In this document: piece after piece, positions 4,089-23,994 of the stretch
Layout: each line of letters begins with the position of its first letter
How positions within the stretch are numbered: position 1 is the stretch's first letter
The notes under the pieces: model-generated
The model's input: only the letters and a program-made list of their open reading frames with translations
The model's database searches: none
Told to the model about the DNA's origin: nothing
IMG/VR virus record: IMGVR_UViG_2778261179_000018
Coordinates: 1-24,494 of that record
DNA from: a virus
Taxonomy: Duplodnaviria > Heunggongvirae > Uroviricota > Caudoviricetes
Strand: one strand, 5' to 3'
Length of the DNA: 24,494 bases
Made by a program: the position numbers and the translations under genes

Positions 4089-4116
4089 GTACCAAAGCCC
4101 TGATTCGGGCTTTGAG

Positions 4117-4296: not shown

Positions 4297-4316
4297 TACT
4301 GAAACCTCTTGCCTTA

Positions 4317-6167: not shown

Positions 6168-6171
6168 GCGT

Positions 6172-9253: not shown

Positions 9254-9536
9254 TTCGCTGTTGTTACGCGGGGAGAGCGTACCTGATGCCTAGACAAGCC
9301 ATCGCCGAATCACCGGGCTGGCATCAACCTACACATGCAACCTGTAAGTACGACTAAAGCCGTAAAATGGTATGGTCGACAATGCGATTTTTTTTGGCGT
9401 GATGTGCTTTACGGCTAGCAAAAAACGATTATTGGTTAACATTATTGTGTTTTATGTTTACATAAAATGGTTTATGATTTACATGTGTTCGAAAGGGATG
9501 ACTCTTTTTGAAGTCATCAATTTTTCCGGAAAAGGT

Positions 9537-10643
9537 ATGAAAGTGTTAGTTGACGATATTGTTGCTCTTATAGAAGCGTCTTTAGATGCAAACTATTCTG
9601 AAGTACGTAGTGTGAGCAATCGAATTGCCAAAGCTATAAGTACCGATAATATGGATGGTGCGAAAAAAATAAAATCTGTTTTACGACGTAAGGGGGTGCC
9701 GTTACGTAGTTCAGGTTACAGCGATAGCCTACCCGTTGATCCAAAGTCAAGAATGCCCTTGGTAGAAGAGCATCAATGGCCTGTCACGCCTCTTTTCTTA
9801 GAGGAGAGCGAACAGGATACCTTTAACACTTTTGTTGAAAGTGTAAAGCAACAAGATAAGCTGATTGCGAATGGACTAGTTGGTAAACTAGGTTTGCTGC
9901 TTTCTGGGCCGCCAGGAACAGGTAAGACATTGATTGCAGGACATATAGCGTCACAACTTAATAGACCACTTTATGTGGTGAGATTAGATTCTGTAATTTC
10001 TTCACTTCTTGGTGATACAGCAAAGAACCTAAGACAGATCTTTGATTTTGTACCGTCAAAAAATGGTGTTTTATTTCTCGACGAAGTTGATGCCGTTGCA
10101 AAAGTAAGAGATGACCGCCATGAAATAGGAGAACTGAAAAGAGTAGTAAATACATTAATTCAAGGTTTAGACTCTCTTGATGATAGTTCTATAGTTATAG
10201 CTGCGACCAATCACTCTGAATTACTTGATCCTGCTATCTGGAGACGTTTTCCTTTTAAAATACGTCTCGATTTCCCTTCCCAGGAATTACGAGAGTTCTT
10301 ATGGAGTCATTTTTTATTCGGTGATAAAGGCCCGATTAAGGAGTTAAAGGCGTTAGGTATTGTTTCAAATGGACTAAGTGGTGCTGATATTGAAACTATA
10401 GCTATTTCGGCGAGGAGACAATCAGTATTATCGAATACACCTTTGAATATTCCTTCTGTATTGTTATCAATTATGGACAGTGAATACAATAATTCAGTGA
10501 TGCCTAACACTAAGGAACCAAGTTTACATACCAAGAAAAGATTGATAAATCTTTTATACGAAGCAAAATCTTTCACACAGACAGAAATTGCCAGCCTATT
10601 AGGTTTGAGTAGGCAGACAATTTCAAGCCATTTAAAGGAGTAA
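9537..10643 (+). CDS. AAA+ ATPase (classic clade) with C-terminal HTH; IetA-like candidate
   Basis: Walker A GPPGTGKT, Walker B VLFLDEVD, sensor-1 AATN, arginine-finger region DPAIWRRF; C-terminal HTH-like TQTEIASLLGLSRQTISSHLKE. Start ambiguous (ATGs at 9483, 9498, 9537); the track start 9372 is rejected. Strongly AT-rich. Confidence 0.8.
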   Translation: MKVLVDDIVALIEASLDANYSEVRSVSNRIAKAISTDNMDGAKKIKSVLRRKGVPLRSSGYSDSLPVDPKSRMPLVEEHQWPVTPLFLEESEQDTFNTFVESVKQQDKLIANGLVGKLGLLLSGPPGTGKTLIAGHIASQLNRPLYVVRLDSVISSLLGDTAKNLRQIFDFVPSKNGVLFLDEVDAVAKVRDDRHEIGELKRVVNTLIQGLDSLDDSSIVIAATNHSELLDPAIWRRFPFKIRLDFPSQELREFLWSHFLFGDKGPIKELKALGIVSNGLSGADIETIAISARRQSVLSNTPLNIPSVLLSIMDSEYNNSVMPNTKEPSLHTKKRLINLLYEAKSFTQTEIASLLGLSRQTISSHLKE

Positions 10644-10647
10644 TGCT

Positions 10648-12876
10648 ATGGCAGATGGTAATAACCGTAAGAAAGTGTTGAACCCTCTACTTTCGTATTT
10701 GGAGGACCCTGCGCCAAAAGCGATTAATGGTGGAGGCAAGAATGCTGACGATATTCAGTGGGCTAGGTTAGATATTCAAAAAGAGACTTTAAGTAAAAGT
10801 CTTAAAAGTATCAGTGAAAACAAATCTATTATAGCTCACGCTGGTAAAATCCATCTGCTAATTAAAATGTTTGATGATTCATTAGCACCTTCATGGACCC
10901 CGACGGATTTATTTGAAACAAATCCTTTTACTAGACTAGTTTCTCCTGCATACAACGGATTTTTAGTTGAAACAAGCAAAGAAAAGATACCTGAAATTAT
11001 CAAGAAGATAAAAACTGCTAGCAATGATAGAATTAAAGTAGATGTGTCACGACTTGAAAGTATAAAGGCATTTGATAGGAGCGCAGTTTTAAGAGGGAAA
11101 AGCTTATCTGACTTTGATTTTAGTAATGATGGAAACCAGTTTAATATTTGGATTTTACCATTTCATGATCCAAATGCGCGCTTTTCGGTTGCTGAGGAGT
11201 TAGAGGATCTTGTTGATGAGGATGTTATTACGTTTGGTGAATCCATTTATGACAATGTTTTTGATGGAGAAAAAAGAACCTCTGGTACTCGTTCCTTCAA
11301 AAGAAAGTTAAAGCAATATCTATCGCATGGACATTTAACATTTACAGCAGTAGTAAAAAATAATAATGACTTCATAAAGTTAATTGGATCCGGAGCTATA
11401 TATAGAATCGAACCGGTTAAGAAGGTGACAACTAGGTCATTGCCTCCTGGTGAAGGAGAAGAGCCTTCACCAAAACTGATTAATAAAGAAACCGCTCCCG
11501 TTGTAGTTATAGTTGATGGTGGTTGTTCATCGAAGTCTTACTTGCCATTGAATGTGATTAACATTAATCCGCTTATTGATAGCTATCATGCAGATTTAAA
11601 ACATGGCAATTGCGTAACTTCATTGGTTTGCCAGGGCGGAGCTTGGAATAATAAATTACACTTACCACAATTAGAGTGTAAATTTGTTAGCGTACAAGCT
11701 ATAAGTAAGAGAGATGTAAGCCCTCAACCAACCACCGAGCAGTTCATTAATTATCTAAGAGTTGTGGCGGAGAAAACTAAAAATGTTTCTTCTGTTTGGA
11801 ATCTATCATTTAATGAGGCTTCGCCATCCGATAGTGTTGATGAAATTAGTAGGTTGGGACATGAAATAAGTCTTCTGGCTCGCGAATTTAATATATTACC
11901 CGTGATTTCAATTGGTAATGTTAACTCTGACAACCCAACTACCTTATGTCCTCCTGCTGATTGTGAAGCGGCATTGACTGTATCAGGTAGAAAAGCATCT
12001 ATTTTAGGTGAGATCTCTTCACATTGTCCAAAAAGTTTGCGTGGACCTGCTCCTGGTGGAATGAAGAAGCCTGAGCTTTCTTGGTTTTCTAAATTGAGGA
12101 TGTTAGGTGGAGATGTTAAGACAGGTACAAGCTTTAGTGCGCCCTTGATATCAAGCATTGCGGCTCACACGTTCAAAAATCTAAAAGAGCCAACTCCAGA
12201 TTTAGTTAAGGCATTACTGATAAACAAAGCTGAAGGTATTGAGCATGATCTTGGCCTAGGTTGGGGGTCTCCATGGAGGAAAGGGAGTTCTATGCCATGG
12301 ATGTGTGAAGATGGAACTGTGACATTAGCTTGGAATTCTAAATTAAAAGCTGGTAGTGCATATTATTGGAATAATATTCCTATCCCTCCTGAAATGATTG
12401 TAGATGGAAAGATTAAAGGTAGTATTATTCTTACTGCCATCTTAAAGCCAGTAGTTTCTGAATTAGCAGGGGATAACTATTTTTCAACAAGATTACAATG
12501 TGCACTACAGCATGTAAATAATGCAGGCAAGGCCAAAAATCTTCTTGGTACTATGAAAGAGTCAACCGAAAAGGAAATTGATTCCAGAAGTGAATTAGCT
12601 AAATGGAGCCCGATTAGACATCATGGTAAAAGCTTTAAAGGGGTTGCCGTTGATAATAACAAAGTAAGGCTTTATGCGCGTATTTTTACAAGAGATCTTT
12701 TCCAATTTAATTATGCGAGTCATCATGAGTTAGATGAACAAGATGTGGCATTTGTTTTGACCTTTAAAAGTCCTAGCGACGATCCATCAATTTACGACTC
12801 AATGAAGCAACAACTTGGTAACAAGGTCAAAGCTGCGATAATAGAACAGGATATTATTCTGGATAGTGATGTTTGA
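10648..12876 (+). CDS. S8 family subtilisin-like serine peptidase; IetS-like candidate
   Basis: 742 aa; RBS AAGGAG 8 nt upstream; 4-bp gap after the ATPase gene. Candidate catalytic motifs in subtilase order: Asp VVVIVDGGCS, His HGNCVTSLV, Ser GTSFSAPLISSIAAH. AT-rich like its partner. Confidence 0.8.
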   Translation: MADGNNRKKVLNPLLSYLEDPAPKAINGGGKNADDIQWARLDIQKETLSKSLKSISENKSIIAHAGKIHLLIKMFDDSLAPSWTPTDLFETNPFTRLVSPAYNGFLVETSKEKIPEIIKKIKTASNDRIKVDVSRLESIKAFDRSAVLRGKSLSDFDFSNDGNQFNIWILPFHDPNARFSVAEELEDLVDEDVITFGESIYDNVFDGEKRTSGTRSFKRKLKQYLSHGHLTFTAVVKNNNDFIKLIGSGAIYRIEPVKKVTTRSLPPGEGEEPSPKLINKETAPVVVIVDGGCSSKSYLPLNVININPLIDSYHADLKHGNCVTSLVCQGGAWNNKLHLPQLECKFVSVQAISKRDVSPQPTTEQFINYLRVVAEKTKNVSSVWNLSFNEASPSDSVDEISRLGHEISLLAREFNILPVISIGNVNSDNPTTLCPPADCEAALTVSGRKASILGEISSHCPKSLRGPAPGGMKKPELSWFSKLRMLGGDVKTGTSFSAPLISSIAAHTFKNLKEPTPDLVKALLINKAEGIEHDLGLGWGSPWRKGSSMPWMCEDGTVTLAWNSKLKAGSAYYWNNIPIPPEMIVDGKIKGSIILTAILKPVVSELAGDNYFSTRLQCALQHVNNAGKAKNLLGTMKESTEKEIDSRSELAKWSPIRHHGKSFKGVAVDNNKVRLYARIFTRDLFQFNYASHHELDEQDVAFVLTFKSPSDDPSIYDSMKQQLGNKVKAAIIEQDIILDSDV

Positions 12877-13352: not shown

Positions 13353-13538
13353 ATGTCCAGACAAAACGTAAACGTAAAACCGGTATTACTCAGTCACGAG
13401 CAGATAAAGGCGCTGAGTGACATTCAGGAGCAGCACCGCAAAACATCCAGTATCGGCGTTGCGCCAACTATCCATGAGATTGCACGCGGTCTGATGGATA
13501 AAGCGCTGGCGTCTCTCTCCGACGGAGTGAAAGTATGA
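13353..13538 (+). CDS. Small phage protein preceding the tape measure gene
   Basis: 61 aa; RBS GGGGGTGG upstream; ATGA overlap with the downstream gene. Confidence 0.5.
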   Translation: MSRQNVNVKPVLLSHEQIKALSDIQEQHRKTSSIGVAPTIHEIARGLMDKALASLSDGVKV

Positions 13539-15535
13539 ATGCTGAAACTCTGAAGGACTTTTTAATTAGCCTGGGCTTCAAAGTAGATGACGCCGGCGCC
13601 AGAAAATTTGATGCCATCGTTACCGGCGCGACACTCAAGGCGATCGAGCTCGGCACCAAAGTAGAGCTGGCCGCTGCGTCTGTGGTGGCCTTTACCGCGA
13701 AAGTCGCCAGCGGTCTCGATAACTTGTACTGGGCCTCTCAGCGCACTGGCGCAACGGTGCAGGGCATCAAGCAGATCGGCTTTGCCGTCAGCCAGATGGG
13801 CGGCAGTGTGGATGCCGCCCGCGGCTCTCTCGAAAGCCTGGCTCAGTTCATCCGTACCAGCTCCGGAGCCGAGGGTTTCCTGAATCGCCTTGGCGTTCAG
13901 ACCCGCGATGCCAGCGGAAACATGCGGGACATGACGACGATCTTTACCGGCGTCGGCCAGCGTCTCAGCAGCATGCCGTACTATCGCGCTAATCAGTACG
14001 CACAGATGCTCGGCATGGATGAAAACACGCTGCTGGCTATGCGTCGAGGCATTGGCGAGTACATGGGCCAGTATAACGCCATGAAAAAGGCTATCGGGTT
14101 TAATCCTGATCAGGCCGCCGCGGCATCTAACCGCTTTATGACCTCGTTGCGGTCGTTCGGCGAAATGGCCGGCATGGCGCGGGACAAAATCGGCTCTAAC
14201 CTCGCTGGTGGTCTAGCCGGTGCCATTGATAACCTTCGCCGCCAGATCCTTGATAACTTCCCGAAAATAGAGCGCACCATTAACGCAGTGGTGAAGGGTA
14301 TTCTTTGGATGGGGGAGGCCGTCGGACGGGTGGTCTATCGTCTGATACAGGCCGCGGGTGATATCCGGGACTGGTGGAAAGGGCTTGATGAAGACTCCAG
14401 GAAACTCATCGGCACGCTGGGTGGAATGCTGGTGGCCTGGCGATTGCTGAATGCCGCTATGCTCGCCTCTCCGATTACCTGGGTTCTGGCGCTTGCTGGT
14501 GCGCTTCTGCTGCTCTATGACGATTACAAGACGTGGAAAGAAGGCGGTAAAAGCCTCATTGACTGGGATAAGTGGGAGCCGGCGATAAACTTTGCGCTGA
14601 CTGCCATTGAAAAACTATGGACTGGTGTGAAGCGTCTTAAAGACGAGTTGATTAAACTTTTCGGTATCGACCCTAAAACATGGTCGATTAAGTTCGAATT
14701 CGACAGTCTGAAGAAGCAGTTCAATGAGCTGAGCAAGATGCTGGATACCATAGGCAAGCTTCTCAATGCGATTGATGAAGGTCGCTGGTCAGACGCGGCA
14801 GCTTACGCCAGACAACTGCTGAATCAGGGCGGCGAGCCGACACCATCAAACGCGGTGACAGACAGCGCCAATAGCGCTGCGGACTGGATTCAGAATAAAA
14901 CCGGGTTTGACCCCCGCAGTATTGGTCAAGCCGTTACTGGCTGGTTTGGTGGTGAAGCTACTCAATACGGGCAGTCTGTTAAACGACCTCAGGCCTCTAA
15001 AGCTGGCGCTCAGCTGCTGGGTTGGATGGCTCCGATGATGGGTAAACTGGAGGCGTTGTATAACCTCCCTGCGGGCCTGCTCCGTAGTGTTGCTCTCGCT
15101 GAGTCAAACGGCAATCAGTTTGCTGTGTCTGGCGCTGGCGCACAGGGAATGTTTCAGTTTATGCCGGGTACTGCCCGCGATATGGGCCTGCGCGGCAACG
15201 ATGTGTTTAACCCGATGAAAGCGGCGGAAGCGGCGGCGCGGTATCTCTCGATGCTCCTGCAGAAGAACGGCGGCGATCTGAATAAAACTCTGGCCTCCTA
15301 TAACTGGGGCATCGGTAATGTGCAGAAGTACGGCATGGCGCTGATGCCCGGGGAGACCCGTCAATATATCCCGAAAGTGCTCAGCAATATGCCGGGCAGC
15401 GGGGCAACGCTGAACCAGGAAACCAATATCCATATTCACGGCGTCAATAATCCGCGAGAGGCGGCCAATCTGGTGGTTGAAAGGCAGAACACTGTAAACA
15501 ATCGGGCAACCCAGGATCTGGGGAGGAGTAACTGA
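13535..15535 (+). CDS. Phage tail tape-measure-like protein with C-terminal lytic transglycosylase (SLT) domain
   Basis: 666 aa; coiled-coil-like N-terminal region, hydrophobic segment LIGTLGGMLVAWRLLNAAMLASPITWVLALAGALLLL, and SLT motif block AESNGNQFAVSGAGAQGMFQFMPGTARDMG...YNWG. Confidence 0.7.
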   Translation: MNAETLKDFLISLGFKVDDAGARKFDAIVTGATLKAIELGTKVELAAASVVAFTAKVASGLDNLYWASQRTGATVQGIKQIGFAVSQMGGSVDAARGSLESLAQFIRTSSGAEGFLNRLGVQTRDASGNMRDMTTIFTGVGQRLSSMPYYRANQYAQMLGMDENTLLAMRRGIGEYMGQYNAMKKAIGFNPDQAAAASNRFMTSLRSFGEMAGMARDKIGSNLAGGLAGAIDNLRRQILDNFPKIERTINAVVKGILWMGEAVGRVVYRLIQAAGDIRDWWKGLDEDSRKLIGTLGGMLVAWRLLNAAMLASPITWVLALAGALLLLYDDYKTWKEGGKSLIDWDKWEPAINFALTAIEKLWTGVKRLKDELIKLFGIDPKTWSIKFEFDSLKKQFNELSKMLDTIGKLLNAIDEGRWSDAAAYARQLLNQGGEPTPSNAVTDSANSAADWIQNKTGFDPRSIGQAVTGWFGGEATQYGQSVKRPQASKAGAQLLGWMAPMMGKLEALYNLPAGLLRSVALAESNGNQFAVSGAGAQGMFQFMPGTARDMGLRGNDVFNPMKAAEAAARYLSMLLQKNGGDLNKTLASYNWGIGNVQKYGMALMPGETRQYIPKVLSNMPGSGATLNQETNIHIHGVNNPREAANLVVERQNTVNNRATQDLGRSN

Positions 15536-16122
15536 TGGATATTCTTTCAACGCTGTTTCAGCAAAATAGCCGCAGAATCGGGTTAATGGTGCCAAGCGTT
15601 GTTGTTTCTGAAAAACACACTGACATGCTGGAGATTACCGAGCATCCCGTTGAACGCCCCACATCTGCTGGGGCTGGTTTTATTGCTGATCATGCGTATC
15701 GCCGACCCTCTGAAGTGGTAATGGAAATTGGCTTTGCTGGTGGTGGTTCACTGCTGGATTTCTACGACACCCGAAATATTGGACTGTCGACGCCGCTCAA
15801 CAGCATGGGCCCGAAAGAGGTTTATGCGGAGCTGCTGAATATGCAGCAAGGTAAGCAGTTGCTCGACGTCACCACGGGCAAGCGGTTGTACAAAAATATG
15901 CTGATCCGCTCTCTGGAGGTTACCACTGACCGAACTACTGAAAATGTATTATCGGCCACAGTGACACTTCGCGAAGTCATTATCACTCAGACAAAAAGCA
16001 TCAAGGTGGCTGATAAAGCCGATATGAAATATGGCGTAAACACCTCAGCCGTAATTAACACCGGAACTAAAACGCCAGTACCGAAAAATGAGTCCATTCT
16101 TTCCAGCGTGTTTGGAGGTTAA
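15535..16122 (+). CDS. Phage tail/baseplate structural protein (unassigned)
   Basis: 195 aa; TGATG-coupled to the upstream gene; RBS GGAG; position within the tail operon. Confidence 0.55.
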   Translation: MDILSTLFQQNSRRIGLMVPSVVVSEKHTDMLEITEHPVERPTSAGAGFIADHAYRRPSEVVMEIGFAGGGSLLDFYDTRNIGLSTPLNSMGPKEVYAELLNMQQGKQLLDVTTGKRLYKNMLIRSLEVTTDRTTENVLSATVTLREVIITQTKSIKVADKADMKYGVNTSAVINTGTKTPVPKNESILSSVFGG

Positions 16123-16428
16123 ATGTCCGTATCGGAAATTCCGTTAGCGCCCGATAGTCAGAGTTTTAATATCACCCTAGCTGGCGTTGATTATCAAATG
16201 CGCGTGGTCTGGCGCGGGGTATGTTGGTTCCTCGACCTGATGGACAGTACCGGTACGCTGATGATTGGCGGTATTCCGCTGATCACCGGCACTAATCTGC
16301 TGGCGCAGTACCATTATCTCGGCCTCGGGTTCTCGCTTTATGTGGTCTGTGATGACCCGGCCAGCGAAAACCCAACGCAGTTTGATCTTGGCATTAAAAG
16401 CCACCTGTACGCGAAAACTGAGGATTAA
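16123..16428 (+). CDS. Phage tail/baseplate protein (small, unassigned)
   Basis: 101 aa; RBS GGAGG; immediately follows the previous stop. Confidence 0.5.
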   Translation: MSVSEIPLAPDSQSFNITLAGVDYQMRVVWRGVCWFLDLMDSTGTLMIGGIPLITGTNLLAQYHYLGLGFSLYVVCDDPASENPTQFDLGIKSHLYAKTED

Positions 16429-16430
16429 CG

Positions 16431-17513
16431 ATGCCAAGAAACTGGAACCGACATTTTGAACTACAGCTCATCGACGATAACGGCGAGGGTATCAGCCTTA
16501 GCGACTTTAAAGTTGCCTTTAGCGTAGAGCGAAACGATAACCGATGGCCAGCTATGGCGCTGGTCAAAATCTATAACCTTGCCCCCGAAACCCAGAACCG
16601 TATCATGCGCCGTGAATACAGCAAGATAACCCTGATAGCGGGTTATGACGGGCTGGATAGTGCTTCCTCTGATACCGTAAGCGCCAGCGAGGTAGGGAAG
16701 GTGCGCTACGTAACAAATGACACCATAAATAGCCCTGATGGCTCAAATTACGGTGTCATTTTCAGCGGTGATATTGCTTTCACTGTGGAAGGCAAAGACA
16801 ACATTACCGATCGGTACGTCCGTATACAGGCATTTGACGGCGACAAGGCCTTTATGGAAGCGCAGATCAGCACCTCGCTGGCCGCCGGCTATACGCTGAG
16901 CGATGAGTACAATTTGCTCATGAAGCACCTTGAACCGTTCGGTATCCGTAAGGGGGTTGAGCCGGTTTTCCCTGGTACAGTCTATCCGCGAGCTGCGTCA
17001 TACCACGGCCTTGTGAACAACTATCTTTCCCGACTGGCTGATGACCTTCGTGCGACATGGCAATTCAGCTTTGGAAAGGTTGACTTCATTCAGCAGGATG
17101 TGGCGAAACACCGTGCAATCGTCCTGAACGCTGATACCGGGCTGGTGGGCATGCCGCAGCAGACCATTGGCGGAGGGGTGAATGTTACGTGTCTTATTAA
17201 TTCCTTCATTCAGTTACACGGGCTTATTCAGTTGGATCAGGCGTCAGTGTATCGTGCACAGTTGAGCAATGAGCAGGTTTTACAGGCTGGTGGTATTGCG
17301 CCGGAACAGGAAATTAACGGCAACCTTGTCACAAGTGGTCTGGCGCAGAGAGAGAATCCGGCGAGTGTTGCGACAGACGGTGTTTATATCGTCCGCTACC
17401 TCTCATATCGAGGCGATACGCGCGGGCAGGACTGGTACATGGATTTAGCTTGCGAAGCCCGAGGAAATGCTGACGTTCCCTCATCGTCTTACTTACTCAA
17501 ACAGGATTCTTAA
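16431..17513 (+). CDS. Putative baseplate hub protein (gp27 / late-control-D-like)
   Basis: 360 aa; RBS GAGGA; lies between the tape measure and the spike gene, the usual hub position. Assignment is by context and size, not by a recognised motif. Confidence 0.5.
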   Translation: MPRNWNRHFELQLIDDNGEGISLSDFKVAFSVERNDNRWPAMALVKIYNLAPETQNRIMRREYSKITLIAGYDGLDSASSDTVSASEVGKVRYVTNDTINSPDGSNYGVIFSGDIAFTVEGKDNITDRYVRIQAFDGDKAFMEAQISTSLAAGYTLSDEYNLLMKHLEPFGIRKGVEPVFPGTVYPRAASYHGLVNNYLSRLADDLRATWQFSFGKVDFIQQDVAKHRAIVLNADTGLVGMPQQTIGGGVNVTCLINSFIQLHGLIQLDQASVYRAQLSNEQVLQAGGIAPEQEINGNLVTSGLAQRENPASVATDGVYIVRYLSYRGDTRGQDWYMDLACEARGNADVPSSSYLLKQDS

Positions 17514-17863
17514 TGAAAAAAGCAATTCTCATTATTGGCATGGTTGCTTCAATGGCGTGCAGCGCGAAAGCGCCCTTAACGCATCGGTATGATTGCGGAG
17601 CCTTTCGGTTTGAGATAATCGAAAACTCCATGTCGAAGATAAACGGCGAGTATGTAACTTCACAAAAAATAGCGTCGCTGGGGGAGCGTGGAGCCAAAAT
17701 AGATATGACCCTCACATCTGCTAAAGACGGTAATTTCTACGGCTTCGAATATGTTCATCCTGACGGCAGCAATAAGCGTTGGCTAAATGTTGAGTTAATC
17801 CGCAGTAGCATGGATCAGCCGCGGATTATTGGTACGTTTATGTGCAAACGTGTTGAGAGTTGA
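17513..17863 (+). CDS. Small secreted protein or lipoprotein within the tail module
   Basis: 116 aa; N-terminal signal-like MKKAILIIGMVASMACSAK with a Cys after the hydrophobic core; TAATG overlap with the upstream gene. Confidence 0.5.
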   Translation: MKKAILIIGMVASMACSAKAPLTHRYDCGAFRFEIIENSMSKINGEYVTSQKIASLGERGAKIDMTLTSAKDGNFYGFEYVHPDGSNKRWLNVELIRSSMDQPRIIGTFMCKRVES

Positions 17864-17872
17864 GGGGGAAGC

Positions 17873-18616
17873 ATGGCCACAGCAAGACCAATTGAAGATC
17901 GCGAGGTGTATGACTCCATCCTGAAGGGGGCGAAACAATCAATTCGTGTGTCAATGCCGGGGGTTATTAAGTCTTTTGACCCGGAAACCGTTACATGCGT
18001 TGTGGAAGTCTCGATATATATCCCTAAGCCAGAGTCAGCGGAAGGCAAATCCATTGACCGGCTGGCGCAGGACAATGTTTTCTACCCGCTTATTTTAGAT
18101 GCGCCGGTTATTTTTCCCCGCGGTGGCGGCTGTACGCTAACGTTTCCCATTAGTGCCGGCGATGAGTGCCTGGTGATATTCGCCGATCGCTGTATCGACT
18201 TCTGGTGGCAGAATGGCGGGGTGCAAAATGGCTCAAGGGGGAGAATGCACGATTACTCGGATGCGTTTGTTATCCCCGGCCCGCAGTCGCAGGCGAAGAA
18301 AATCAGCGGCATCAGCACTACGGCCGCGCAGCTGCGTACCGACGACGGCACCGCATTCATTGAGGTGTCCGCCGGCGGGGATATCACTGCCACCACCGCC
18401 GGCAACGCGACTATTAACGCCCCGGAAATCATTCTCAATGGCAACGTAACGATTAACGGCAACCTGTCGCAGGGCATGGGCGATAGCGGCGGCACAGCGA
18501 CGATGCACGGCCCTGTTACCGTAACCAACGATGTGACAGCAGGTGGTAAGAGCCTGATGACGCACACGCATGGAGGGGTTGAGACTGGCAGTGGGAATAC
18601 AGGAGAGCCGCAGTAA
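17873..18616 (+). CDS. Baseplate central spike protein (gpV / gp5 / gp138-like)
   Basis: 247 aa; RBS GGGGGAAG; Gly/Thr-rich beta-helix-like C-terminus (ITATTAGNATINAPEIILNGNVTINGN) ending in an HxH motif (MTHTHGG), as at the metal-binding tip of phage spikes. Confidence 0.6.
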   Translation: MATARPIEDREVYDSILKGAKQSIRVSMPGVIKSFDPETVTCVVEVSIYIPKPESAEGKSIDRLAQDNVFYPLILDAPVIFPRGGGCTLTFPISAGDECLVIFADRCIDFWWQNGGVQNGSRGRMHDYSDAFVIPGPQSQAKKISGISTTAAQLRTDDGTAFIEVSAGGDITATTAGNATINAPEIILNGNVTINGNLSQGMGDSGGTATMHGPVTVTNDVTAGGKSLMTHTHGGVETGSGNTGEPQ

Positions 18617-19154: not shown

Positions 19155-19613
19155 ATGGCAGTTACAACCCTAAATAGCGTGGCGGACTATCTGCTGTGCT
19201 TTGCTCAGGAGCACGGGGATGTTATGACGCCGCTGAAACTGCAAAAAATGGTGTTTTACGCTGATGCCTGGTATATGGCTCTGAACGATGGCGAAGAGTT
19301 GATTGCTGATCGGTTTGAGGCGTGGGTACACGGCCCGGTAGCGAGAGATTTGTATATCAGGTTCGCCGATTACAAATGGCAGCCGATCACCCGTGAAATA
19401 CCATGCCCGGATCTCCCTAAGGGTGTTTCTGAACATCTGGACGAAATTTATAATGTATTCGGCGGATTCTCGGCTTATGAGCTGGAGCAGATGACGCATC
19501 AGGAAAAACCCTGGCTGATAGCTCGCGGTGATATTCCATCAGATGCGCCTTGCCGGAATGACATCGACAAAGGCGTAACCGCTGAATTCTACCGCGGCAT
19601 GATGGATGCCTGA
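19155..19613 (+). CDS. Panacea-domain (DUF4065, SocA/GepA-like) protein; putative antitoxin
   Basis: 152 aa; RBS AGGAGA 8 nt upstream; hallmark LKLQKMVFYADAW ... GPV ... Y of the DUF4065 family. Confidence 0.75.
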   Translation: MAVTTLNSVADYLLCFAQEHGDVMTPLKLQKMVFYADAWYMALNDGEELIADRFEAWVHGPVARDLYIRFADYKWQPITREIPCPDLPKGVSEHLDEIYNVFGGFSAYELEQMTHQEKPWLIARGDIPSDAPCRNDIDKGVTAEFYRGMMDA

Positions 19614-20158: not shown

Positions 20159-20563
20159 ATGTTTAAGGAGTGTCCTGTGCAAAGAATCGAAGTGATCACT
20201 GGCGAGCAAAAGCGCCGCCGTTATACTCCCGAAGAGAAAGCCCGTTTTGTAGCGCTCGCCATGCAGCCCGGCTACACCGTCTCACTCGTTGCCCGGCAAT
20301 ATGGCATCACTCCCAGTCTTCTTTTTAAGTGGAAACGACTCATGAACGAGGGTGGCAAGTCTGCGATCGCCGCAGGCGACGAGGTGGTCAGCGTCTCCGA
20401 GCTCAAAGCGCTGGAGAAAAAAGTCAAACAGCTTGAACAGATGCTGGGACGCAAAACGATGGAAGCCGAAATCCTTCGCGACGCGCTTGAGATAGCCCAG
20501 GCAAAAAAGTTGATATCGCGCATGCCATTGCTGCCACCGGACGATATCCCCTCATCCGAATAG
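20159..20563 (+). CDS. IS3-family transposase OrfA (HTH DNA-binding subunit)
   Basis: EQKRRRYTPEEKARFV...GYTVSLVARQYGITPSLLFKWKR and a leucine-zipper-like C-terminus; slippery AAAAAAG at 20503-20509 for a programmed -1 frameshift. Confidence 0.85.
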   Translation: MFKECPVQRIEVITGEQKRRRYTPEEKARFVALAMQPGYTVSLVARQYGITPSLLFKWKRLMNEGGKSAIAAGDEVVSVSELKALEKKVKQLEQMLGRKTMEAEILRDALEIAQAKKLISRMPLLPPDDIPSSE

Positions 20564-20568
20564 CAGAA

Positions 20569-21384
20569 GTGCTCTGTGTATCGCGTTCGAATCTGTATGA
20601 CCGGTTACTGGATAAAAGCCAGCACCGGTCAGCCCGCTACAGCAAAGACGATGACGCCCGACTGTTACCGCTTATCCGCCAGATATGCAGCGAGCGGGCA
20701 ACAAACGGCTATCGTCGCGTGACTGCGCACCTCAATCGTGCGCTGAAGGAACATAACTGGCGAGTTAACCCCAAACGTATTTATCGGATCATGCAGGCGA
20801 ATAACCTGTTACTGGCAAAATCTGGCCATAAAAAGCCAGAACGCTGCCATACCGGCAGCGTCGTGACACTTAAGTCGGATACGCGCTGGTGCTCAGATGG
20901 CTTCGAAATCCGCTGCTGGAATCGGGAAGTCGTGCGGGTGGTGTTCAGCCTTGACTGCTGTGATCGTGAAGCCATCAGTTGGTCGGCCACAGCAGGCGGT
21001 ATAAACAGCGTTATGGTGCAGGATCTGCTGACAGAGAGTGTAGAAAAGCGCTTTGGAAATACGCTTTACCTGCCACACGCCGTTGAGTGGCTGACCGATA
21101 ACGGCAGTTGCTACGTAGCGGACGCGACAAGGACGTTCGCTGCTTCACTCGGGTTCATCGTGTGTACGACGCCAGTGCGTAGCCCGGAGAGCAATGGGAT
21201 GGCTGAATCGTTCGTGAAAACGTTCAAGCGTGACTACGTGTATGTGAATGACCTGCCGGATGCGGTGACCGTAATGGAAAAACTGACAGAATGGATGGAA
21301 GACTATAATAACTGGCATCCCCATAAAGGACTGAAAATGCAGTCACCGAGAGAATACAGAAGCTCATTACTAGCTATAAATTAA
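20569..21384 (+). CDS. IS3-family transposase OrfB (DDE catalytic domain); probably expressed as an OrfAB fusion
   Basis: ORF-track coordinates; the reading frame stays open upstream to the slippery site in the -1 frame; integrase-core-like block WLTDNGSCYVA and conserved C-terminal region. Confidence 0.8.
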   Translation: MLCVSRSNLYDRLLDKSQHRSARYSKDDDARLLPLIRQICSERATNGYRRVTAHLNRALKEHNWRVNPKRIYRIMQANNLLLAKSGHKKPERCHTGSVVTLKSDTRWCSDGFEIRCWNREVVRVVFSLDCCDREAISWSATAGGINSVMVQDLLTESVEKRFGNTLYLPHAVEWLTDNGSCYVADATRTFAASLGFIVCTTPVRSPESNGMAESFVKTFKRDYVYVNDLPDAVTVMEKLTEWMEDYNNWHPHKGLKMQSPREYRSSLLAIN

Positions 21385-21662
21385 CCGTGTCCGATTTAGC
21401 GGGGGCAACTCCAGCTCAATCTGTATATGGACAAAACAACGTTAAACACGGTTAGAGGTTCCGACGAAATCCGTCGGTAGCTGTGAAGATGATGGAAAGA
21501 GCCATCATGAGGAAAATCAACAAAGTCCAGCTTTGGACTGTAAGCCGGATTTGGCTTGCGTAAGGCTAGTGACTCAAAGTCGCGAGGTTAACCGAGTATC
21601 TCTGAGCGAGTCGGATAGCCTACCCTCTTTAAGAGGGTCAGTAGATACGGGGCTGGACTAAG

Positions 21663-21858
21663 TTATCCACATAATGGAAATCATAAGGCAACTCACTATC
21701 TCCGCATTTCATGCGGCCTAAGGGCATAAAATCGCAGTTTTCATTGAAAATGGATAACTCCGCATTTTTTTGAAGTTTTAATTCCGCACTCAAACGCAGA
21801 CAGGCAGCGGCCCCGGAGGAGACTTTTAGTCAGAATTATTCCGCACGCAAAATGCGGA
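21663..21858. repeat. ORF-free region with a DnaA-box-like 9-mer and repeated TCCGCA motifs; candidate origin or operator
   Basis: TTATCCACA at 21663-21671; reverse-orientation TGGATAA at 21751-21757; four direct copies of (A/T)(C/T)TCCGCA at about 21698, 21756, 21780 and 21838; small inverted repeats CCGCAT-ttc-ATGCGG and TCCGCA-cgcaaaa-TGCGGA; AT-rich stretches between. Confidence 0.4.
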
Positions 21859-22278
21859 GAAATGATTTTGAACAAAAATTAAACAGTGACTGATTTCAGG
21901 TAAGCGTATGGCCAGAAAAAATAGTTTTCAGAAGGCCTACGTCGGTATCGTTCTGGACATGGCTTTAGCCCTGCCAATGTATGCAAATGTTAACGTTTTT
22001 CCGTGTCTGGCTGGTGGGCGAATCTTTACATTTCTTGGTGCTAGAGGGCTGACTTAGTTTCATCAGGGTAATTGCGACAAATTGCGACGTTCTGTCCTGA
22101 TACGAACGGAGCTGAATAGCGAAAAATATAGACGTTTTCCCGGTTGTTCACCCGAGACTCTACGAGCAGAATGTTTACAAATGTTGGTGTTCAGACGTTT
22201 CTCAAATGCCGGCCCACTGATAGGATCAAATAGTAACGTTTTGGCGAAATTCTCCCTTTCCAGAAACAGGTGGCTAAC

Positions 22279-22470
22279 ATGCTTAAATCTGATGTCATTG
22301 AGTCGGCAATTGCTGAGATGGTCACTAAGCAGGGATTCGCATTGAGCGCCGCCGATATGCTGGAGCTACGTTGTAGAGTTGCCGGTACGCTCGCAGCGAA
22401 GGAGCGCCACCGCCGGCGGATGACGGCCCCAGCCTACCAGTGGAAGAAGCCGGATAATCCGCGTCGCTAA
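22279..22470 (+). CDS. Hypothetical small protein
   Basis: Start at MLKSDV with RBS AGGTGG 5 nt upstream (track start 22270 rejected); 63 aa; 3' end overlaps the convergent minus-strand gene by 4 bp. Confidence 0.45.
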   Translation: MLKSDVIESAIAEMVTKQGFALSAADMLELRCRVAGTLAAKERHRRRMTAPAYQWKKPDNPRR

Positions 22471-22826
22471 AACACACGCGTAAATTCGCCTTCTATCGCC
22501 CCACCAGCGCCATCTTTATCGTGCACCACTGAAACGGTACCCGGAAGGCCATAACGGACGACTGTAGCAGTCGTCTCGCCGCCCAGAACGATACTCCGCG
22601 CCTCACGGCTACGGTACCTTTCCAGCAACCCGTCTTTCACCATTGCTTCAAGCGTTCGCCTGGTGGATTCGAGCCAGTGCCGGTTATCTTTGAGACCCAT
22701 ACCATGTAGCAGGTATGCTACGCCGGACACATCGAGCGGAGGTGCGCCGATCTCGACCGTCACCCATTCCCGGTTATCCGGCTCAAAGTAGCTGAGTATC
22801 GTCTTTTTGCGGCTGGTCAGTCTCAT
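22467..22826 (-). CDS. Hypothetical protein, possible DNA-binding regulator
   Basis: Start at MRLTSRKK with RBS AAGGAA 9 nt upstream (track start 22862 rejected); 119 aa; divergent from the terminase-like operon across the TGCGCAA motif cluster. Confidence 0.5.
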   Translation of the reverse strand: MRLTSRKKTILSYFEPDNREWVTVEIGAPPLDVSGVAYLLHGMGLKDNRHWLESTRRTLEAMVKDGLLERYRSREARSIVLGGETTATVVRYGLPGTVSVVHDKDGAGGAIEGEFTRVF

Positions 22827-22896
22827 GCTGGAAGATTCCTTAATGTAGGATAGTGCTATCATACATTAACAGAACGCCAGCAGGGTACATCCAGAA

Positions 22897-23102
22897 GTAC
22901 GCAGACTGGTACGCAGGTACGCAAAAGTGGTACGTAGTGCGCAAAAAAAGTGCGAATTGCGCAGTTTGAAAAATAACCGCGCAAATAGGCCTGTAACCCG
23001 CACCAGCACTTGTTTTTAATGGTGATGATTCGCAATATTTGTGCGCAATTCGCAGATTTAATGCTTAGAAATGCCAGGGTTTCAGCGTTCAATTGCGCAA
23101 TA
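22897..23102. promoter_or_regulatory. Dense cluster of GTACGCA / TGCGCAA-family motifs in a divergent intergenic region
   Basis: GTACGCAG 22897, GGTACGCAG 22908, GGTACGCAA 22916, GGTACGTAG 22929, GTGCGCAAA 22938; GTGCGAATTGCGCAG at 22950-22964, whose 13-bp core recurs in inverted orientation as TGCGCAATTCGCA at 23042-23054; palindromic AATTGCGCAAT near 23091. Confidence 0.5.
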
Positions 23103-23145
23103 ATTTGTATCGGGATGTACCGTTTATGCCGCCAAGAGGCGTTAA

Positions 23146-23526
23146 ATGAAAAAACCTGACCAACAATCAAGATCCGGATGGGGCGGAAAGCGTACCGGCT
23201 CTGGCGCACCCTATGGCAACACGAACGCGGTTAAGCATGGAGAACGTAGCCGGCGGGCATTTTTTCCACTGGAAGGCGGAGATGAGCTCTCCCCGCTGGT
23301 AAAGAACAGGGTGCGGAACCTCTTGCTGGCTGAACACCTCGGCCTGCTCATACAAAGCGACCCGGAGTACGGAACAGAGGCATGGCGGGAAATGACGCTT
23401 CTCTACGGGATGATGAGCCTGCATACCGACCGCATCATGAGGCTGGAGCTGATGAAAGCAAAGGCTGACCTGGCCCGCGCCAGACTGGAGCTGATAAGGC
23501 TTAAAAAGCGTCTGCCTGCCAGATGA
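23146..23526 (+). CDS. Putative phage terminase small subunit-like protein
   Basis: 126 aa; RBS AAGAGG 7 nt upstream; N-terminal GAPYGNTNAVKHG, which I recall from small terminase / packaging proteins; coiled-coil-like C-terminus. Confidence 0.5.
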   Translation: MKKPDQQSRSGWGGKRTGSGAPYGNTNAVKHGERSRRAFFPLEGGDELSPLVKNRVRNLLLAEHLGLLIQSDPEYGTEAWREMTLLYGMMSLHTDRIMRLELMKAKADLARARLELIRLKKRLPAR

Positions 23527-23583
23527 GTGATTTGCTGGCTGGTGGTTGTGAGAATTCTGGACAGTTCTGGACGGATGGGGAAT

Positions 23584-23994
23584 ATGGCGACATTAAAGGC
23601 TGAGTGCAAAATATTTATTGTTCAATCCATTGCGTGCTACGAAACGCCTTCTCAGGTCGTGGAGTCCGTAAGGGAGAAATTTGGTATTAAAATCACCCGC
23701 CAGCAGGTCGAATCACATGATCCGACGAAGGTCAGCGGTAAGGGGCTGGCTCAAAAATGGGTAGACATATTCAACGCTACCCGCGCGCGCTTTCTCAAAG
23801 AAACCTCGGACATTCCGATCGCCAACAAGGCCTATAGTCTGCGCGTCCTCGACAGAATGGCTGTTAACGCTGAAAGCATGAATAACTACGGAATGACAGC
23901 CGACATTCTGGAGCAGGCAGCCAAAGAGGTTGGCGGAGTGTACGCCAGCCGGATGAACGTGGAGACTGCAGGCAAAAGCATCAGTGACGCTTAG
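23584..23994 (+). CDS. DUF2280-like phage protein (packaging-associated, putative DNA-binding)
   Basis: Start at MATLKAECKIFIVQSIACYETPSQVVESVREKFGIKITRQQV, which resembles DUF2280 N-termini as I recall them; 136 aa. Confidence 0.55.
   Translation: MATLKAECKIFIVQSIACYETPSQVVESVREKFGIKITRQQVESHDPTKVSGKGLAQKWVDIFNATRARFLKETSDIPIANKAYSLRVLDRMAVNAESMNNYGMTADILEQAAKEVGGVYASRMNVETAGKSISDA

What the first reader, a model, noticed from the sequence alone, without database searches (positions are those of the whole stretch)
21663..21858. DnaA-box-like 9-mer plus periodic TCCGCA repeats and AT-rich tracts
A perfect TTATCCACA, a reverse-orientation TTATCCA, and four direct (A/T)(C/T)TCCGCA copies with short inverted repeats and AT-rich segments form an origin-like or operator-like array. 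A single perfect DnaA box is not very improbable in 24 kb, so the weight is on the combination.
Basis: seen in the sequence. Interest (0 to 1): 0.4.

Follow-up and report, generated by a model that had tools for sequence, protein, structure and literature searches.

The report
Helper-phage packaging site in a satellite island
The repeat cluster is not a replication origin: it is most likely a DNA-packaging (cos-type) signal copied from a family of temperate phages, sitting without its terminase genes inside a satellite-like chromosomal island that probably uses it to be packaged by those phages.

Summary
The sequence features are real. TTATCCACA is at 21663-21671. Five of the window's six WYTCCGCA matches fall within 162 bp.

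The origin reading is not supported. Window 21638-21971 is homologous to the intergenic region between a tyrosine recombinase and the small terminase gene (terS) of EKP1/YP3-type temperate myoviruses. Their TerL is 84-86% identical to that of SEN34.

About 100 relatives show two repeat alleles. All 3-5 copies are either TCCGCA or GCCGCA. The allele matches the TerS recognition helix in 51 of 51 distinct sequences (DEATIRNWR or DETTIRRWR). It does not track the recombinase lineage. Phages 95-100% identical over 9.6 kb differ only in a roughly 600-bp cassette holding the repeats and the TerS N-terminus.

Four independent viral contigs end 16-27 nt upstream of the terS ATG, inside an invariant TTTGAACAAAA block. 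This suggests a fixed genome end.

The window belongs to a roughly 23-24 kb island in the 3' end of der. It has an integrase, AlpA, a primase and a tail-tip module. No capsid, terL or lysis gene was identified among the ORFs scanned. All 17 island copies examined keep the region without a cognate terS, as either allele.

Three of the four direct repeats are conserved sites. The DnaA-like 9-mer is variable flank.

The parts
21638..21661 (+). Vestige of the 3' end of the phage tyrosine-recombinase gene. It spans the last 7 codons plus the TAA stop at 21659-21661, and marks the left limit of homology to the phages.
   Evidence: The window reads ...SVDTGLD*. The phages read ...SVDMDLD* after the YGHLF catalytic motif. 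All island copies show the same breakpoint.
21662..21728 (+). Left block. It contains the DnaA-box-like TTATCCACA (21663-21671), which is the first of three TCCAC-type half-sites (forward, reverse, forward in the phages).
   Evidence: The block varies with the lineage of the upstream recombinase. Lineages carry TTATCCACA, TTAACCGCA, TTATTCACA or GATAAACACA. In L080/L096 it is replaced entirely by CTATATCC-type repeats. It is the most diverged part among island copies, at 15-20% mismatches.
21699..21706 (+). Window-lineage-specific pseudo-copy TCTCCGCA.
   Evidence: The site reads CTCCCCA in every phage relative and most island copies examined. A single C>G change in a sublineage of islands creates it.
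21729..21741 (+). Conserved block AAATCGCAGTTTT. It forms the left edge of the specificity cassette.
   Evidence: The first 11 nt (AAATCGCAGTT) are invariant in both alleles and all recombinase lineages in alignment A2. One island copy reads AAAACGCAGTTTT. Identity between otherwise near-identical phages drops immediately to its right.
21755..21769 (+). Repeat R1 (TAACTCCGCATTTTT; core TCCGCA at 21759-21764).
   Evidence: Present in all relatives at +30 from the anchor. It reads TCCGCA or GCCGCA in concert with R2 and R3.
21779..21792 (+). Repeat R2 (TAATTCCGCACTCA; core at 21783-21788), 24 bp after R1.
   Evidence: In the long variants it is replaced by two inverted copies of the matching allele.
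21834..21863 (+). Repeat R3 (AATTATTCCGCACGC; core at 21840-21845), 57 bp after R2. An inverted copy, TGCGGAGA, lies at 21853-21860, so the pair forms a short palindrome in the TCCGCA allele.
   Evidence: The terminator-like score of this hairpin is specific to the TCCGCA allele and is not conserved in the GCCGCA allele.
21867..21885 (+). Invariant block TTTGAACAAAA..TAA.CA carrying the inferred genome terminus (cut site near 21878-21892).
   Evidence: The block is identical in both alleles. Four independent IMG/VR contigs end or start here, 16-27 nt upstream of the terS ATG. Two of them have both of their ends at this point.
21908..21971 (+). Vestige of the small-terminase gene: start codon and first 21 codons (MARKNSFQKAYVGIVLDMALA). 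Homology to the phages ends here.
   Evidence: All island copies share the same right breakpoint, and the continuation is not conserved as protein.

Best explanation
Window 21638-21971 is a copy of the packaging-recognition region that lies just upstream of the small-terminase gene in EKP1/YP3-type temperate myoviruses of Enterobacteriaceae. It contains no terminase gene. These phages share head, tail and TerL modules with Salmonella phage SEN34.

Proposed mechanism, inferred rather than shown. The N-terminal helix-turn-helix domain of the phage small terminase binds the three direct repeats R1-R3. In the TCCGCA allele it may also bind the inverted copy next to R3. This would position the large terminase to cut about 20-45 bp further right, in the invariant TTTGAACAAAA block, creating the end from which DNA is packaged.

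The window is part of a roughly 23-24 kb integrative island with an integrase, AlpA, a DUF927 primase-helicase, a variable cargo hotspot, a tail-tip module and a Panacea toxin-antitoxin pair. It is inserted in the 3' end of der. No capsid, large terminase or lysis gene was identified among the ORFs scanned. The island keeps the phage signal intact, so after helper infection or induction the helper terminase could package island DNA, as satellite P4 does with its copy of the P2 cos site.

The signal exists in two specificities (TCCGCA and GCCGCA) that match two small-terminase alleles. Islands carry one or the other, and the alleles have been exchanged by short, clean gene conversions. This window carries the TCCGCA allele.

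The DnaA-box-like 9-mer belongs to a separate, poorly conserved left block that varies with the phage recombinase gene. It is not part of the conserved core.
For: **Shown**

1. Homology and position. The region is 70-78% identical to EKP1 and YP3. In the circular EKP1 record it lies between a tyrosine recombinase and a 194-aa helix-turn-helix protein that directly precedes terL. That protein gives weak small-terminase PHROG hits. Its best PDB hits are sub-threshold: RppC and the 2ao9 phage protein.
2. Concerted change. In about 100 relatives, all 3-5 copies are either TCCGCA or GCCGCA, including the inverted copies in the long variants.
3. Match to the binding protein. In 51 of 51 distinct sequences, TCCGCA goes with helix DEATIRNWR and GCCGCA with DETTIRRWR. 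The GEVVEMDLD, GEAVEMDLD, CAPVDMDLD and NESVDMDLD recombinase C-terminal types each occur with both alleles.
4. Cassette structure. L079 and L024 are 95-100% identical over 9.6 kb except at +46..+645 from the anchor, where identity is 62-82%. That interval holds the repeats, the cut block and the N-terminal part of TerS (about 150 codons in this pair). Three other phage pairs show the same pattern.
5. Ends. Four independent viral contigs terminate within an 11-nt window inside a block invariant in both alleles.
6. YP3 carries the region with terS but without the recombinase.
7. Island context. A 21-29 bp att repeat equals the der 3' end. The island carries an integrase, AlpA, a primase and tail genes. 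No capsid, terL or lysis family matched any ORF scanned.
8. Retention. All 17 island copies keep the region with identical breakpoints: 12 carry TCCGCA (one a hybrid) and 5 carry GCCGCA.
9. Conversion. Islands L108 and L107 are 100% identical for at least 1 kb on each side but 50-64% identical within about 250 bp.
10. Constraint. In the most diverged island copy, R1..ATG has 2-2.6% mismatches, the flanks 6-9% and the left block 15-20%.

**Inferred**

TerS binding to the repeats, the exact cut position, and mobilisation of the island.
Against: - No binding, cleavage or transfer data exist.
- The small-terminase assignment rests on gene position and weak profile hits.
- The repeats lie within 70-150 bp of terS, so part of the allele match could reflect physical linkage. 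The sharp cassette edges on both sides reduce this concern but do not remove it.
- Contig ends are indirect evidence of genome ends. The ends show neither the overlap nor the gap expected of filled-in or trimmed cohesive ends. They fall in a recombination-prone conserved block where assembly graphs could branch.
- The repeats lie on the side of the inferred cut away from terS. In lambda, cosB lies between cosN and Nu1.
- No IHF consensus site is present.
- The TTTGAACAAAA and AAATCGCAGTT blocks are absent from SEN34 and from the 7.6-kb terS-terL region of Omnitron examined, although both have near-identical TerL.
- A roughly 23-24 kb island would under-fill a capsid sized for the 37-43 kb phage genomes seen here. 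No capsid-size factor was identified.
- All island copies descend from one capture event, so the precise capture of the intergenic region counts as a single observation.
Confidence: 0.7

Rival explanations
1. Inert relic. The segment is a scar of an old recombination between the island's ancestor and a phage. It is still homologous enough to be converted by passing phages, but it has no role in the island.
For: - All island copies share the same breakpoints, so they trace to one ancestral event.
- The island copies are mostly 94-100% identical, which leaves little power to detect selection.
- Conversion needs only homology, not function.
- The window's own copy carries several private substitutions in the left block.
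Against: - All 17 copies retain the three repeat cores and the cut block.
- In the most diverged copy, the R1..ATG core is about 3-fold less diverged than its flanks. That copy has also lost about 150 bp just to the right.
- The retained segment spans exactly the non-coding module plus a few codons on either side.
- The element carrying it has satellite hallmarks.
Confidence: 0.18
2. Transcriptional control region of the phage packaging operon. The repeats would be sites for a late activator, or for TerS autoregulation, rather than a packaging signal.
For: - The region lies directly upstream of terS with a conserved ribosome-binding site and ATG.
- Repeats that co-vary with a helix-turn-helix protein are also expected for autoregulation.
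- The consensus scan cannot see activator-dependent promoters.
Against: - No sigma-70-like promoter was found.
- In the phages the region sits inside a co-directional run of genes (antitermination protein, lysis genes, recombinase), which suggests read-through from upstream.
- The islands keep the region although nothing conserved is left to express.
- Contig ends map into it.
- The invariant blocks shared by both alleles are not explained by this reading.
Confidence: 0.07
3. Target site of the adjacent tyrosine recombinase (att, lox or dif-like), with the repeats acting as arm-type sites.
For: - In nearly all phages a tyrosine recombinase gene ends 1 nt before the region, including a distant Erwinia phage.
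- The left block holds a short palindrome and a third half-site that vary with the recombinase lineage.
Against: - The repeat allele is independent of recombinase lineage.
- YP3 and all islands carry the region without the recombinase.
- The region is uninterrupted in prophage-containing isolate genomes (Citrobacter, Trabulsiella and Enterobacter records), so it is not the attP those prophages used.
- This reading may still apply to the left block (21662-21728) alone.
Confidence: 0.03
4. Replication origin.
For: There is a perfect TTATCCACA, rare in this window, together with direct repeats and some A/T runs.
Against: - There is a single box, it is not conserved, and it lies in the fastest-diverging block.
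- The A/T runs are absent from the GCCGCA allele.
- The repeats are about 11-14 bp long with 24 and 57 bp spacing.
- There is no adjacent initiator gene and no GC-skew shift.
- The repeat allele tracks a terminase subunit, not a replication protein.
Confidence: 0.02

Closest known systems
Phage lambda cos: cosB R3-I1-R2-R1 sites bound by gpNu1, and the lambda/phage 21 specificity pair (reviewed in PMC9026076)
   Same: - Three short related repeats lie next to the cut site and next to the small-terminase gene.
- They are read by an N-terminal helix-turn-helix domain.
- Packaging specificity resides in the repeats plus the TerS N-terminal half and can be exchanged as a unit, while the C-terminal half stays matched to TerL. 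The cassette seen here follows this pattern.
   Different: - There is no sequence similarity to lambda cos.
- The repeats lie on the far side of the inferred cut from terS, and all three are direct in the short form.
- No IHF consensus is present.
- The TerS family is different.
- The nature of the ends is unknown.
Satellite phage P4 carrying a copy of the helper P2 cos site (own knowledge)
   Same: An integrative element with a P4-type integrase, AlpA and a primase lacks terminase genes but carries the helper's packaging signal.
   Different: - The helper family and the cos sequence are different.
- No Sid, Psu or Delta homologues were found among the ORFs scanned.
- The island is about twice the size of P4 and carries tail genes.
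- It occurs with two helper specificities.
E. coli PICIs such as EcCICFT073: cos plus the Rpp redirecting protein (PMC6739421, PMC9026076)
   Same: [quoted passage not shown]
- Both carry a cos related to that of their helpers.
- Both have a terS-like gene nearby. Here that is a DUF2280 protein at 23527-23994.
   Different: - PICI cos keeps the helper's cosQ and cosN but has no helper-type R repeats, and Rpp redirects TerS to it.
- Here the complete helper-type repeat array is retained.
- The DUF2280 protein belongs to a different family from Rpp, and its role is unknown.
Bacillus phage SPP1 pac, with pacL and pacR boxes flanking the pacC cut (own knowledge)
   Same: Small-terminase binding boxes lie upstream of the cut site, at the 5' end of the terS gene.
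   Different: - SPP1 packages by the headful mechanism with permuted ends, whereas the contig ends here suggest a fixed terminus.
- The proteins and sequences are unrelated.

Membership tests
DnaA-dependent replication origin (oriC-type) | A cluster of several DnaA boxes conserved among relatives | tested here: not met
   The region has one consensus box. Relatives carry TTAACCGCA, TTATTCACA or GATAAACACA, or lack it.
DnaA-dependent replication origin (oriC-type) | An AT-rich unwinding element and a strand-composition switch | tested here: not met
   The A/T runs between R1 and R2 become C-rich in the GCCGCA allele. GC skew does not change across 21000-22500.
Iteron-type origin (plasmid or phage) | Regularly spaced 17-22 bp iterons next to the gene of the initiator that binds them | tested here: not met
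   The conserved units are about 11-14 bp long with 24 and 57 bp spacing. The nearest replication gene is the primase at 5947-8856. The repeat allele tracks TerS.
Phage cos/terminase recognition site (lambda cosB-like) | Located immediately next to terS-terL in the phage genome | tested here: met
   EKP1: recombinase, this region, the 194-aa helix-turn-helix protein, then terL across the start of the circular record. The same order holds in the IMG/VR and genome loci.
Phage cos/terminase recognition site (lambda cosB-like) | Repeats whose sequence co-varies with the TerS DNA-binding domain | tested here: met
   The match holds in 51 of 51 distinct sequences. The cassette is confined to the repeats plus the TerS N-terminus.
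Phage cos/terminase recognition site (lambda cosB-like) | Mature genome ends map at or next to the site | tested here: inconclusive
   Four independent contig ends fall within 11 nt of each other in an invariant block. There are no read-level or biochemical data, and the overhang is unknown.
Phage cos/terminase recognition site (lambda cosB-like) | TerS binds the repeats, and an IHF site lies between them | not testable with these tools
   Binding cannot be tested here. The IHF consensus WATCAANNNNTTR is absent from the region.
Phage satellite (P4-like / PICI-like) carrying helper cos | [quoted passage not shown] | tested here: met
   Integrase at 1-1254, int-alpA RNA, AlpA at 2401-2604 and a DUF927 primase. 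A 21-29 bp direct repeat lies at the der 3' end and about 165 nt beyond the DUF2280 gene in relatives. attR itself is not in the window.
Phage satellite (P4-like / PICI-like) carrying helper cos | Lacks the genes for an autonomous virion, with no tail or holin genes (forbidden components in SatelliteFinder, PMC10085698) | tested here: not met
   No capsid, terL or lysis genes were found, but six tail genes (tape measure, Dit-like, hub, gpV-like) lie at 13535-18616. The island therefore falls outside the formal PICI and cfPICI models.
Phage satellite (P4-like / PICI-like) carrying helper cos | Induced and packaged by a helper phage | not testable with these tools
   This requires induction and transduction experiments.
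Structured RNA (5' leader / riboswitch) | A conserved secondary structure with covariation, or an Rfam match | tested here: not met
   There is no Rfam hit at E<=1. The RNAalifold consensus is weak: -14.4 kcal/mol over 255 nt, with a covariation term of -1.8.

The most novel reading that the evidence does not exclude
The island represents an undescribed type of phage satellite with three unusual traits.

1. It carries the complete terminase-recognition array of its helpers rather than a stripped-down cos.
2. It switches between two helper TerS specificities by roughly 250-bp gene conversions picked up from whichever helper is around.
3. It also brings its own tail-tip module (tape measure to spike) and a second, DUF2280-type TerS-like protein with its own candidate repeat array (ACGTTT repeats at 21985-22246). 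It could therefore build chimeric particles, or redirect the shared TerL of SEN34-like phages.

If this holds, the finding would also define the previously unidentified packaging signal of this phage group. [quoted passage not shown]
Probability: 0.3. Interest if true: 0.75.

Novelty: new member of a known kind. Interest (0 to 1): 0.5.

Why it matters
The result explains a striking repeat cluster without invoking replication. It gives a concrete, testable packaging signal for a widespread group of temperate Enterobacteriaceae myoviruses. For one member, SEN34, the published description says no packaging sequence could be identified (PMC5261728).

It provides a natural two-allele specificity pair: TCCGCA with TerS helix ...ATIRNW..., and GCCGCA with ...TTIRRW.... 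This is ready for binding and swap experiments, much like the classical lambda/21 system.

It also flags a common island next to der-xseA-guaBA that looks like a satellite of these phages. One of its proteins is indexed in 394 blocks of the collection. Current satellite finders would reject the island because it carries tail genes. Such islands carry variable defence cargo, so knowing how they are mobilised bears on gene flow in Klebsiella-like bacteria.

Tried and rejected
- **E. coli genomes.** A megablast of 21300-22300 against complete E. coli genomes gave no match.
- **Plasmids.** Only short, unrelated hits to flanking sequence appeared.
- **Rfam.** At gathering thresholds the only hit is int-alpA RNA at 1263-1329. 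A permissive search of 21380-22000 found nothing.
- **tRNA.** None found.
- **Promoter scan.** No sites. The one terminator-like hairpin (21839-21859) is allele-specific and was not pursued.
- **IHF consensus.** Absent from the region.
- **RNA structure.** The consensus fold is weak.
- **Genome-contig scan.** It gave 12 stretches, of which 7 were chance matches in unrelated taxa and were discarded. The window's own genome was not among them.
- **Chance pattern hits.** L059, L063 and L067 (tandem ~190-bp units) are unrelated and were excluded.
- **Exact-protein look-ups.** The DUF2280 protein and the 131-aa ORF are not on record.
- **Shared cut site across TerS types.** I looked for the TTTGAACAAAA and AAATCGCAGTT blocks upstream of terS in SEN34 and Omnitron, which have similar TerL but other TerS types. 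Neither block is there, so a shared TerL site across TerS types is not supported.
- **PDB sequence search with TerS.** Only sub-threshold hits appeared: RppC at E=0.16 and 2ao9 at E=0.68.
- **Recombinase-site reading for R1-R3.** Considered and rejected because the repeat allele is independent of recombinase lineage. It is kept as a possibility for the left block only.
- **IS3 relationship.** I first suspected the region was part of, or truncated by, the neighbouring IS3. Island copies without the IS show the insertion lies about 220 bp to the left and does not touch the region.
- **Distant Erwinia phage.** It has recombinase-terS synteny and a different 9-mer repeated at 24-bp spacing. With only two direct copies, I treat this as a hint only.

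Full report
**1. The observation**

- TTATCCACA lies at 21663-21671. The window has two copies against 0.12 expected.
- (A/T)(C/T)TCCGCA occurs at 21699, 21757, 21781 and 21838 on the + strand and at 21853-21860 on the - strand.
- The window-wide count is unremarkable (6 against 3.9 expected). But five of the six lie within 162 bp.
- The repeat finder recovers the direct and inverted pairs.

The cluster is therefore real and non-random.

**2. Surroundings**

| Window coordinates | Feature | Calls |
|---|---|---|
| 1-1254 | P4-type tyrosine integrase | 7 |
| 1263-1329 | int-alpA RNA motif | 4 |
| 2401-2604 | AlpA-like protein | 58, 60 |
| 3052-3861 | AntA domain protein | 7 |
| 5947-8856 | DUF927 primase-helicase | 7 |
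| 9372-12876 | Low-GC AAA ATPase plus S8 peptidase pair | 3, 7 |
| 13535-18616 | Six tail genes, tape measure to gpV-like spike | 7, 8, 59 |
| 19155-19613 | Panacea-domain protein | 8 |
| 20159-21384 | IS3 element | 8 |
| 21638-21971 | The region of interest | see below |
| 22270-23526 | Small ORFs | 2 |
| 23527-23994 | DUF2280 protein | 8 |

There is no tRNA. Complete E. coli genomes hold no match.

**3. Homology**

A sensitive blastn found window 21653-21971 at 70-78% identity in Elizabethkingia phage EKP1 and Yersinia phage YP3.

- In EKP1 the match is the intergenic region between a 334-aa tyrosine recombinase and a 194-aa protein.
- In the circular record that protein directly precedes the large terminase.
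- The 194-aa protein has an N-terminal helix-turn-helix and weak hits to small-terminase PHROGs.
- Its best PDB hits are sub-threshold: the TerS-like RppC and the 2ao9 phage protein.
- I treat it as the small terminase (TerS) on position plus these weak hits.

EKP1's TerL is 84-86% identical to that of Salmonella phage SEN34, Hafnia yong1, Citrobacter Omnitron and several E. coli prophage-derived phages. Those phages use other TerS types. The SEN34 description states that its packaging sequences could not be identified (PMC5261728).

Pattern scans of IMG/VR, GTDB genomes and metagenomes returned about 100 further copies. Those from named isolate genomes are all Enterobacteriaceae: Citrobacter, Pseudocitrobacter, Enterobacter and Trabulsiella.

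In the window, homology starts at the last 7 codons of the recombinase and ends after codon 21 of terS.

**4. Anatomy from the comparison (alignment A2)**

From left to right:

- **Left block (21662-21728).** It holds the DnaA-like 9-mer.
- **Conserved AAATCGCAGTTTT (21729-21741).**
- **Three repeats.** Their CCGCA cores are invariant, at +30, +54/55 and +111/112 from that block.
- **Invariant TTTGAACAAAA..TAA.CA block (21867-21885).**
- **Ribosome-binding site and ATG (21908).**

The repeats come in two alleles. They read A-W-W-A-W-TCCGCA in the window type and GATAYGCCGCA in the EKP1 type. All copies in a given sequence belong to one allele. This includes the two extra inverted copies in the long variants L007/L020/L061 and L031/L045.

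A single C>G change confined to a sublineage of islands creates it.

The reverse TTATCCA is just the flank of repeat 1 in one allele.

The 9-mer itself varies: TTAACCGCA, TTATTCACA or GATAAACACA. It is replaced altogether in phages with a fourth recombinase lineage.

**5. Which protein reads the repeats**

- Across 51 distinct sequences, the TCCGCA allele always accompanies TerS helix DEATIRNWR. The GCCGCA allele always accompanies DETTIRRWR.
- The GEVVEMDLD, GEAVEMDLD, CAPVDMDLD and NESVDMDLD recombinase C-terminal types each occur with both alleles.
- Phage pairs that are otherwise near-identical make the point sharply. L079 and L024 are 95-100% identical over 9.6 kb except between +46 and +645 from the anchor, where identity is 62-82%.
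- That interval holds the repeats, the cut block and the N-terminal part of TerS (about 150 codons in this pair). L078 or L056 against L013 give the same picture.
- This is the pattern known from lambda and phage 21, where cosB and the N-terminal half of TerS form an exchangeable specificity unit (PMC9026076).
- YP3 has the region with terS but without the recombinase.

I conclude that the repeats are very probably TerS sites. This is an inference from co-variation, not a binding result. Physical linkage contributes to the association.

**6. Genome ends**

- Two IMG/VR contigs (41,185 nt and 29,418 nt) have both of their ends abutting inside the TTTGAACAAAA block.
- Two further contigs start 3 and 10 nt further right.
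- All four ends lie 16-27 nt upstream of the ATG.
- Random breakpoints would not coincide like this, so a fixed physical terminus (cos-type) is the simplest reading.
- The ends show neither an overlap nor a gap. The block is also a recombination-prone conserved stretch. I therefore rate the exact position as moderately secure.
- The repeats lie on the far side of this cut from terS, unlike lambda's cosB.

**7. What the window copy is**

Exact-protein look-ups showed that the window belongs to a conserved island.

- The Panacea protein is indexed in 394 blocks of the collection, and the integrase in 217.
- In the contig holding both island ends (L113/L106), integrase start to DUF2280 stop spans 22.8 kb. 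The window's copy is about 24 kb, partly because of the IS3 insertion.
- The island lies between der and yfgJ-xseA-guaBA.
- It is bounded by a 21-29 bp direct repeat that is the 3' end of der.
- Its gene order is integrase, AlpA, AntA, primase, a variable cargo slot, the six tail genes, Panacea, this region, small ORFs, then DUF2280.
- No capsid, terL or lysis gene was identified among the ORFs scanned.

All 17 island copies examined carry the region with the same two breakpoints and without a cognate terS or the recombinase.

- Twelve copies carry the TCCGCA allele. One of these, L110, combines TCCGCA repeats with a GCCGCA-type cut-site flank.
- Five copies carry the GCCGCA allele.
- Islands L108 and L107 are 100% identical for at least 1 kb on each side, yet 50-64% identical across about 250 bp. 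That is a clean conversion of one allele into the other.
- In the most diverged copy (L126), R1..ATG shows 2-2.6% mismatches. The flanks show 6-9% and the left block 15-20%. About 150 bp just to the right have been deleted.

The IS3 element is an insertion found only in the window lineage (also L124). It ends about 220 bp to the left of the region.

**8. Interpretation**

The best explanation is that the island carries a copy, without terminase genes, of its helper phages' terminase recognition and cleavage region. It would be packaged by a helper with the matching TerS, as P4 is by P2.

- Shown: the homology, the cassette behaviour and the island context.
- Inferred: TerS binding, the cut position and mobilisation.

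Open problems remain:

- the reversed geometry relative to lambda;
- the lack of an IHF consensus;
- the absence of the invariant blocks from SEN34 and Omnitron, despite similar TerL;
- how a roughly 23-24 kb element fills a capsid sized for the 37-43 kb phage genomes seen here.

**9. Alternatives**

- **Origin.** Not supported. There is a single, unconserved DnaA box in the fastest-diverging block. There is no conserved AT-rich element and no skew change. The repeats are unlike iterons, and the repeat allele tracks a terminase subunit.
- **Operator or promoter.** No promoter-like site was found. Nothing conserved is left to express in the islands.
- **RNA element.** No Rfam hit and a weak consensus fold.
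- **Recombinase site.** Excluded for R1-R3 by the lack of co-variation. It remains possible for the left block, whose TCCAC half-sites change with the recombinase lineage.
- **Inert relic.** This is the main surviving rival. All island copies derive from one capture, and conversion does not require function.

**10. Novelty and score**

Terminase-binding repeats next to a cos cut, and satellites that carry their helper's cos, are both known. This is an uncharacterised example in a phage group whose packaging signal had not been identified.

It has two attractive features: a natural two-allele specificity cassette, and a host island that formal satellite models would reject because it carries tail genes (PMC10085698).

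I rate it a new member of a known kind, with interest 0.5.

Noticed in passing
window 21440-21650: An island-native non-coding stretch immediately left of the region folds into six hairpins. The RNA minimum free energy is -78.9 kcal/mol, with z = -5.06 against shuffles. It is present in all island copies. Positions 21483-21537 are 87% identical to segments of Klebsiella plasmids. It has no Rfam match. It may be a small RNA or a mobile hairpin module.
   Followed up: partly
window 21985-22246: A second repeat array lies just right of the terS vestige. It has 3-5 copies of AAAT..(A/G)ACGTTTT plus GAATCTTTACA-type repeats. The array is conserved in island relatives and partly deleted in L126. These could be sites for the island's own DUF2280 TerS-like protein.
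   Followed up: partly
window 23146-23994: The DUF2280 gene is about 71-75% identical at the DNA level to genes in several lambdoid and myovirus genomes. In Citrobacter phage Omnitron it sits directly upstream of a TerL that is 86% identical to EKP1's. The island therefore also encodes a TerS-like protein of a type that partners with the helper family's TerL.
   Followed up: partly
window 13535-18616: A complete tape measure, Dit-like, Pam3_gp18, baseplate hub and gpV-like spike module sits inside an otherwise satellite-like island with no sheath, tube, capsid or terL genes. It is about 79% identical to Klebsiella prophage-derived phages. SatelliteFinder treats tail genes as forbidden for PICI and cfPICI.
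   Followed up: partly
window 9372-12876: A low-GC (36%) AAA ATPase with a C-terminal HTH, plus an S8 subtilase, occupies a cargo slot. Relatives hold PP2C phosphatase plus Ser/Thr kinase, SSB, PerC or other genes there. This looks like a defence hotspot.
   Followed up: no
L001-L104 (phage loci); window 21662-21728: A roughly 335-aa tyrosine recombinase gene ends 1 nt before the region in almost all related phages. The same arrangement holds in a distant Erwinia phage with 35% TerS identity. The left block has three TCCAC half-sites that change with the recombinase lineage. EKP1 also has a separate integrase next to its tail-fibre genes. The role of the second recombinase is unknown.
   Followed up: partly
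L002 1780-1870 (Yersinia phage YP3): A 78-bp tandem duplication contains repeat R3, the TTTG..AAAAA block and the ribosome-binding site. The YP3 record also holds a second match to the query region, which was not inspected. Its gene order looks rearranged.
   Followed up: no
window 20159-21416: An IS3-family element (orfA at 20159-20563, orfB at 20569-21384) is present only in the window lineage and L124 (GCA_043945415.1). Other island copies are uninterrupted at this point.
   Followed up: yes
window 4400-4408: The window's second perfect TTATCCACA lies inside the 347-aa ORF at 3854-4897, upstream of the primase gene. I did not examine whether the island's replication origin lies nearby.
   Followed up: no
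L003 (OM284015.1): EKP1 is recorded as an Elizabethkingia phage. Yet every relative of its packaging region that comes from a named isolate genome, and its closest TerL relatives (84-86% identity), are from Enterobacterales. The host assignment looks doubtful.
   Followed up: no
L023/L088 (IMGVR_UViG_2029527006_000024): This contig has both ends at the inferred cut site but is only 29.4 kb long. The related phage genomes are about 37-43 kb. It may be a deletion derivative or a smaller packaged element.
   Followed up: no
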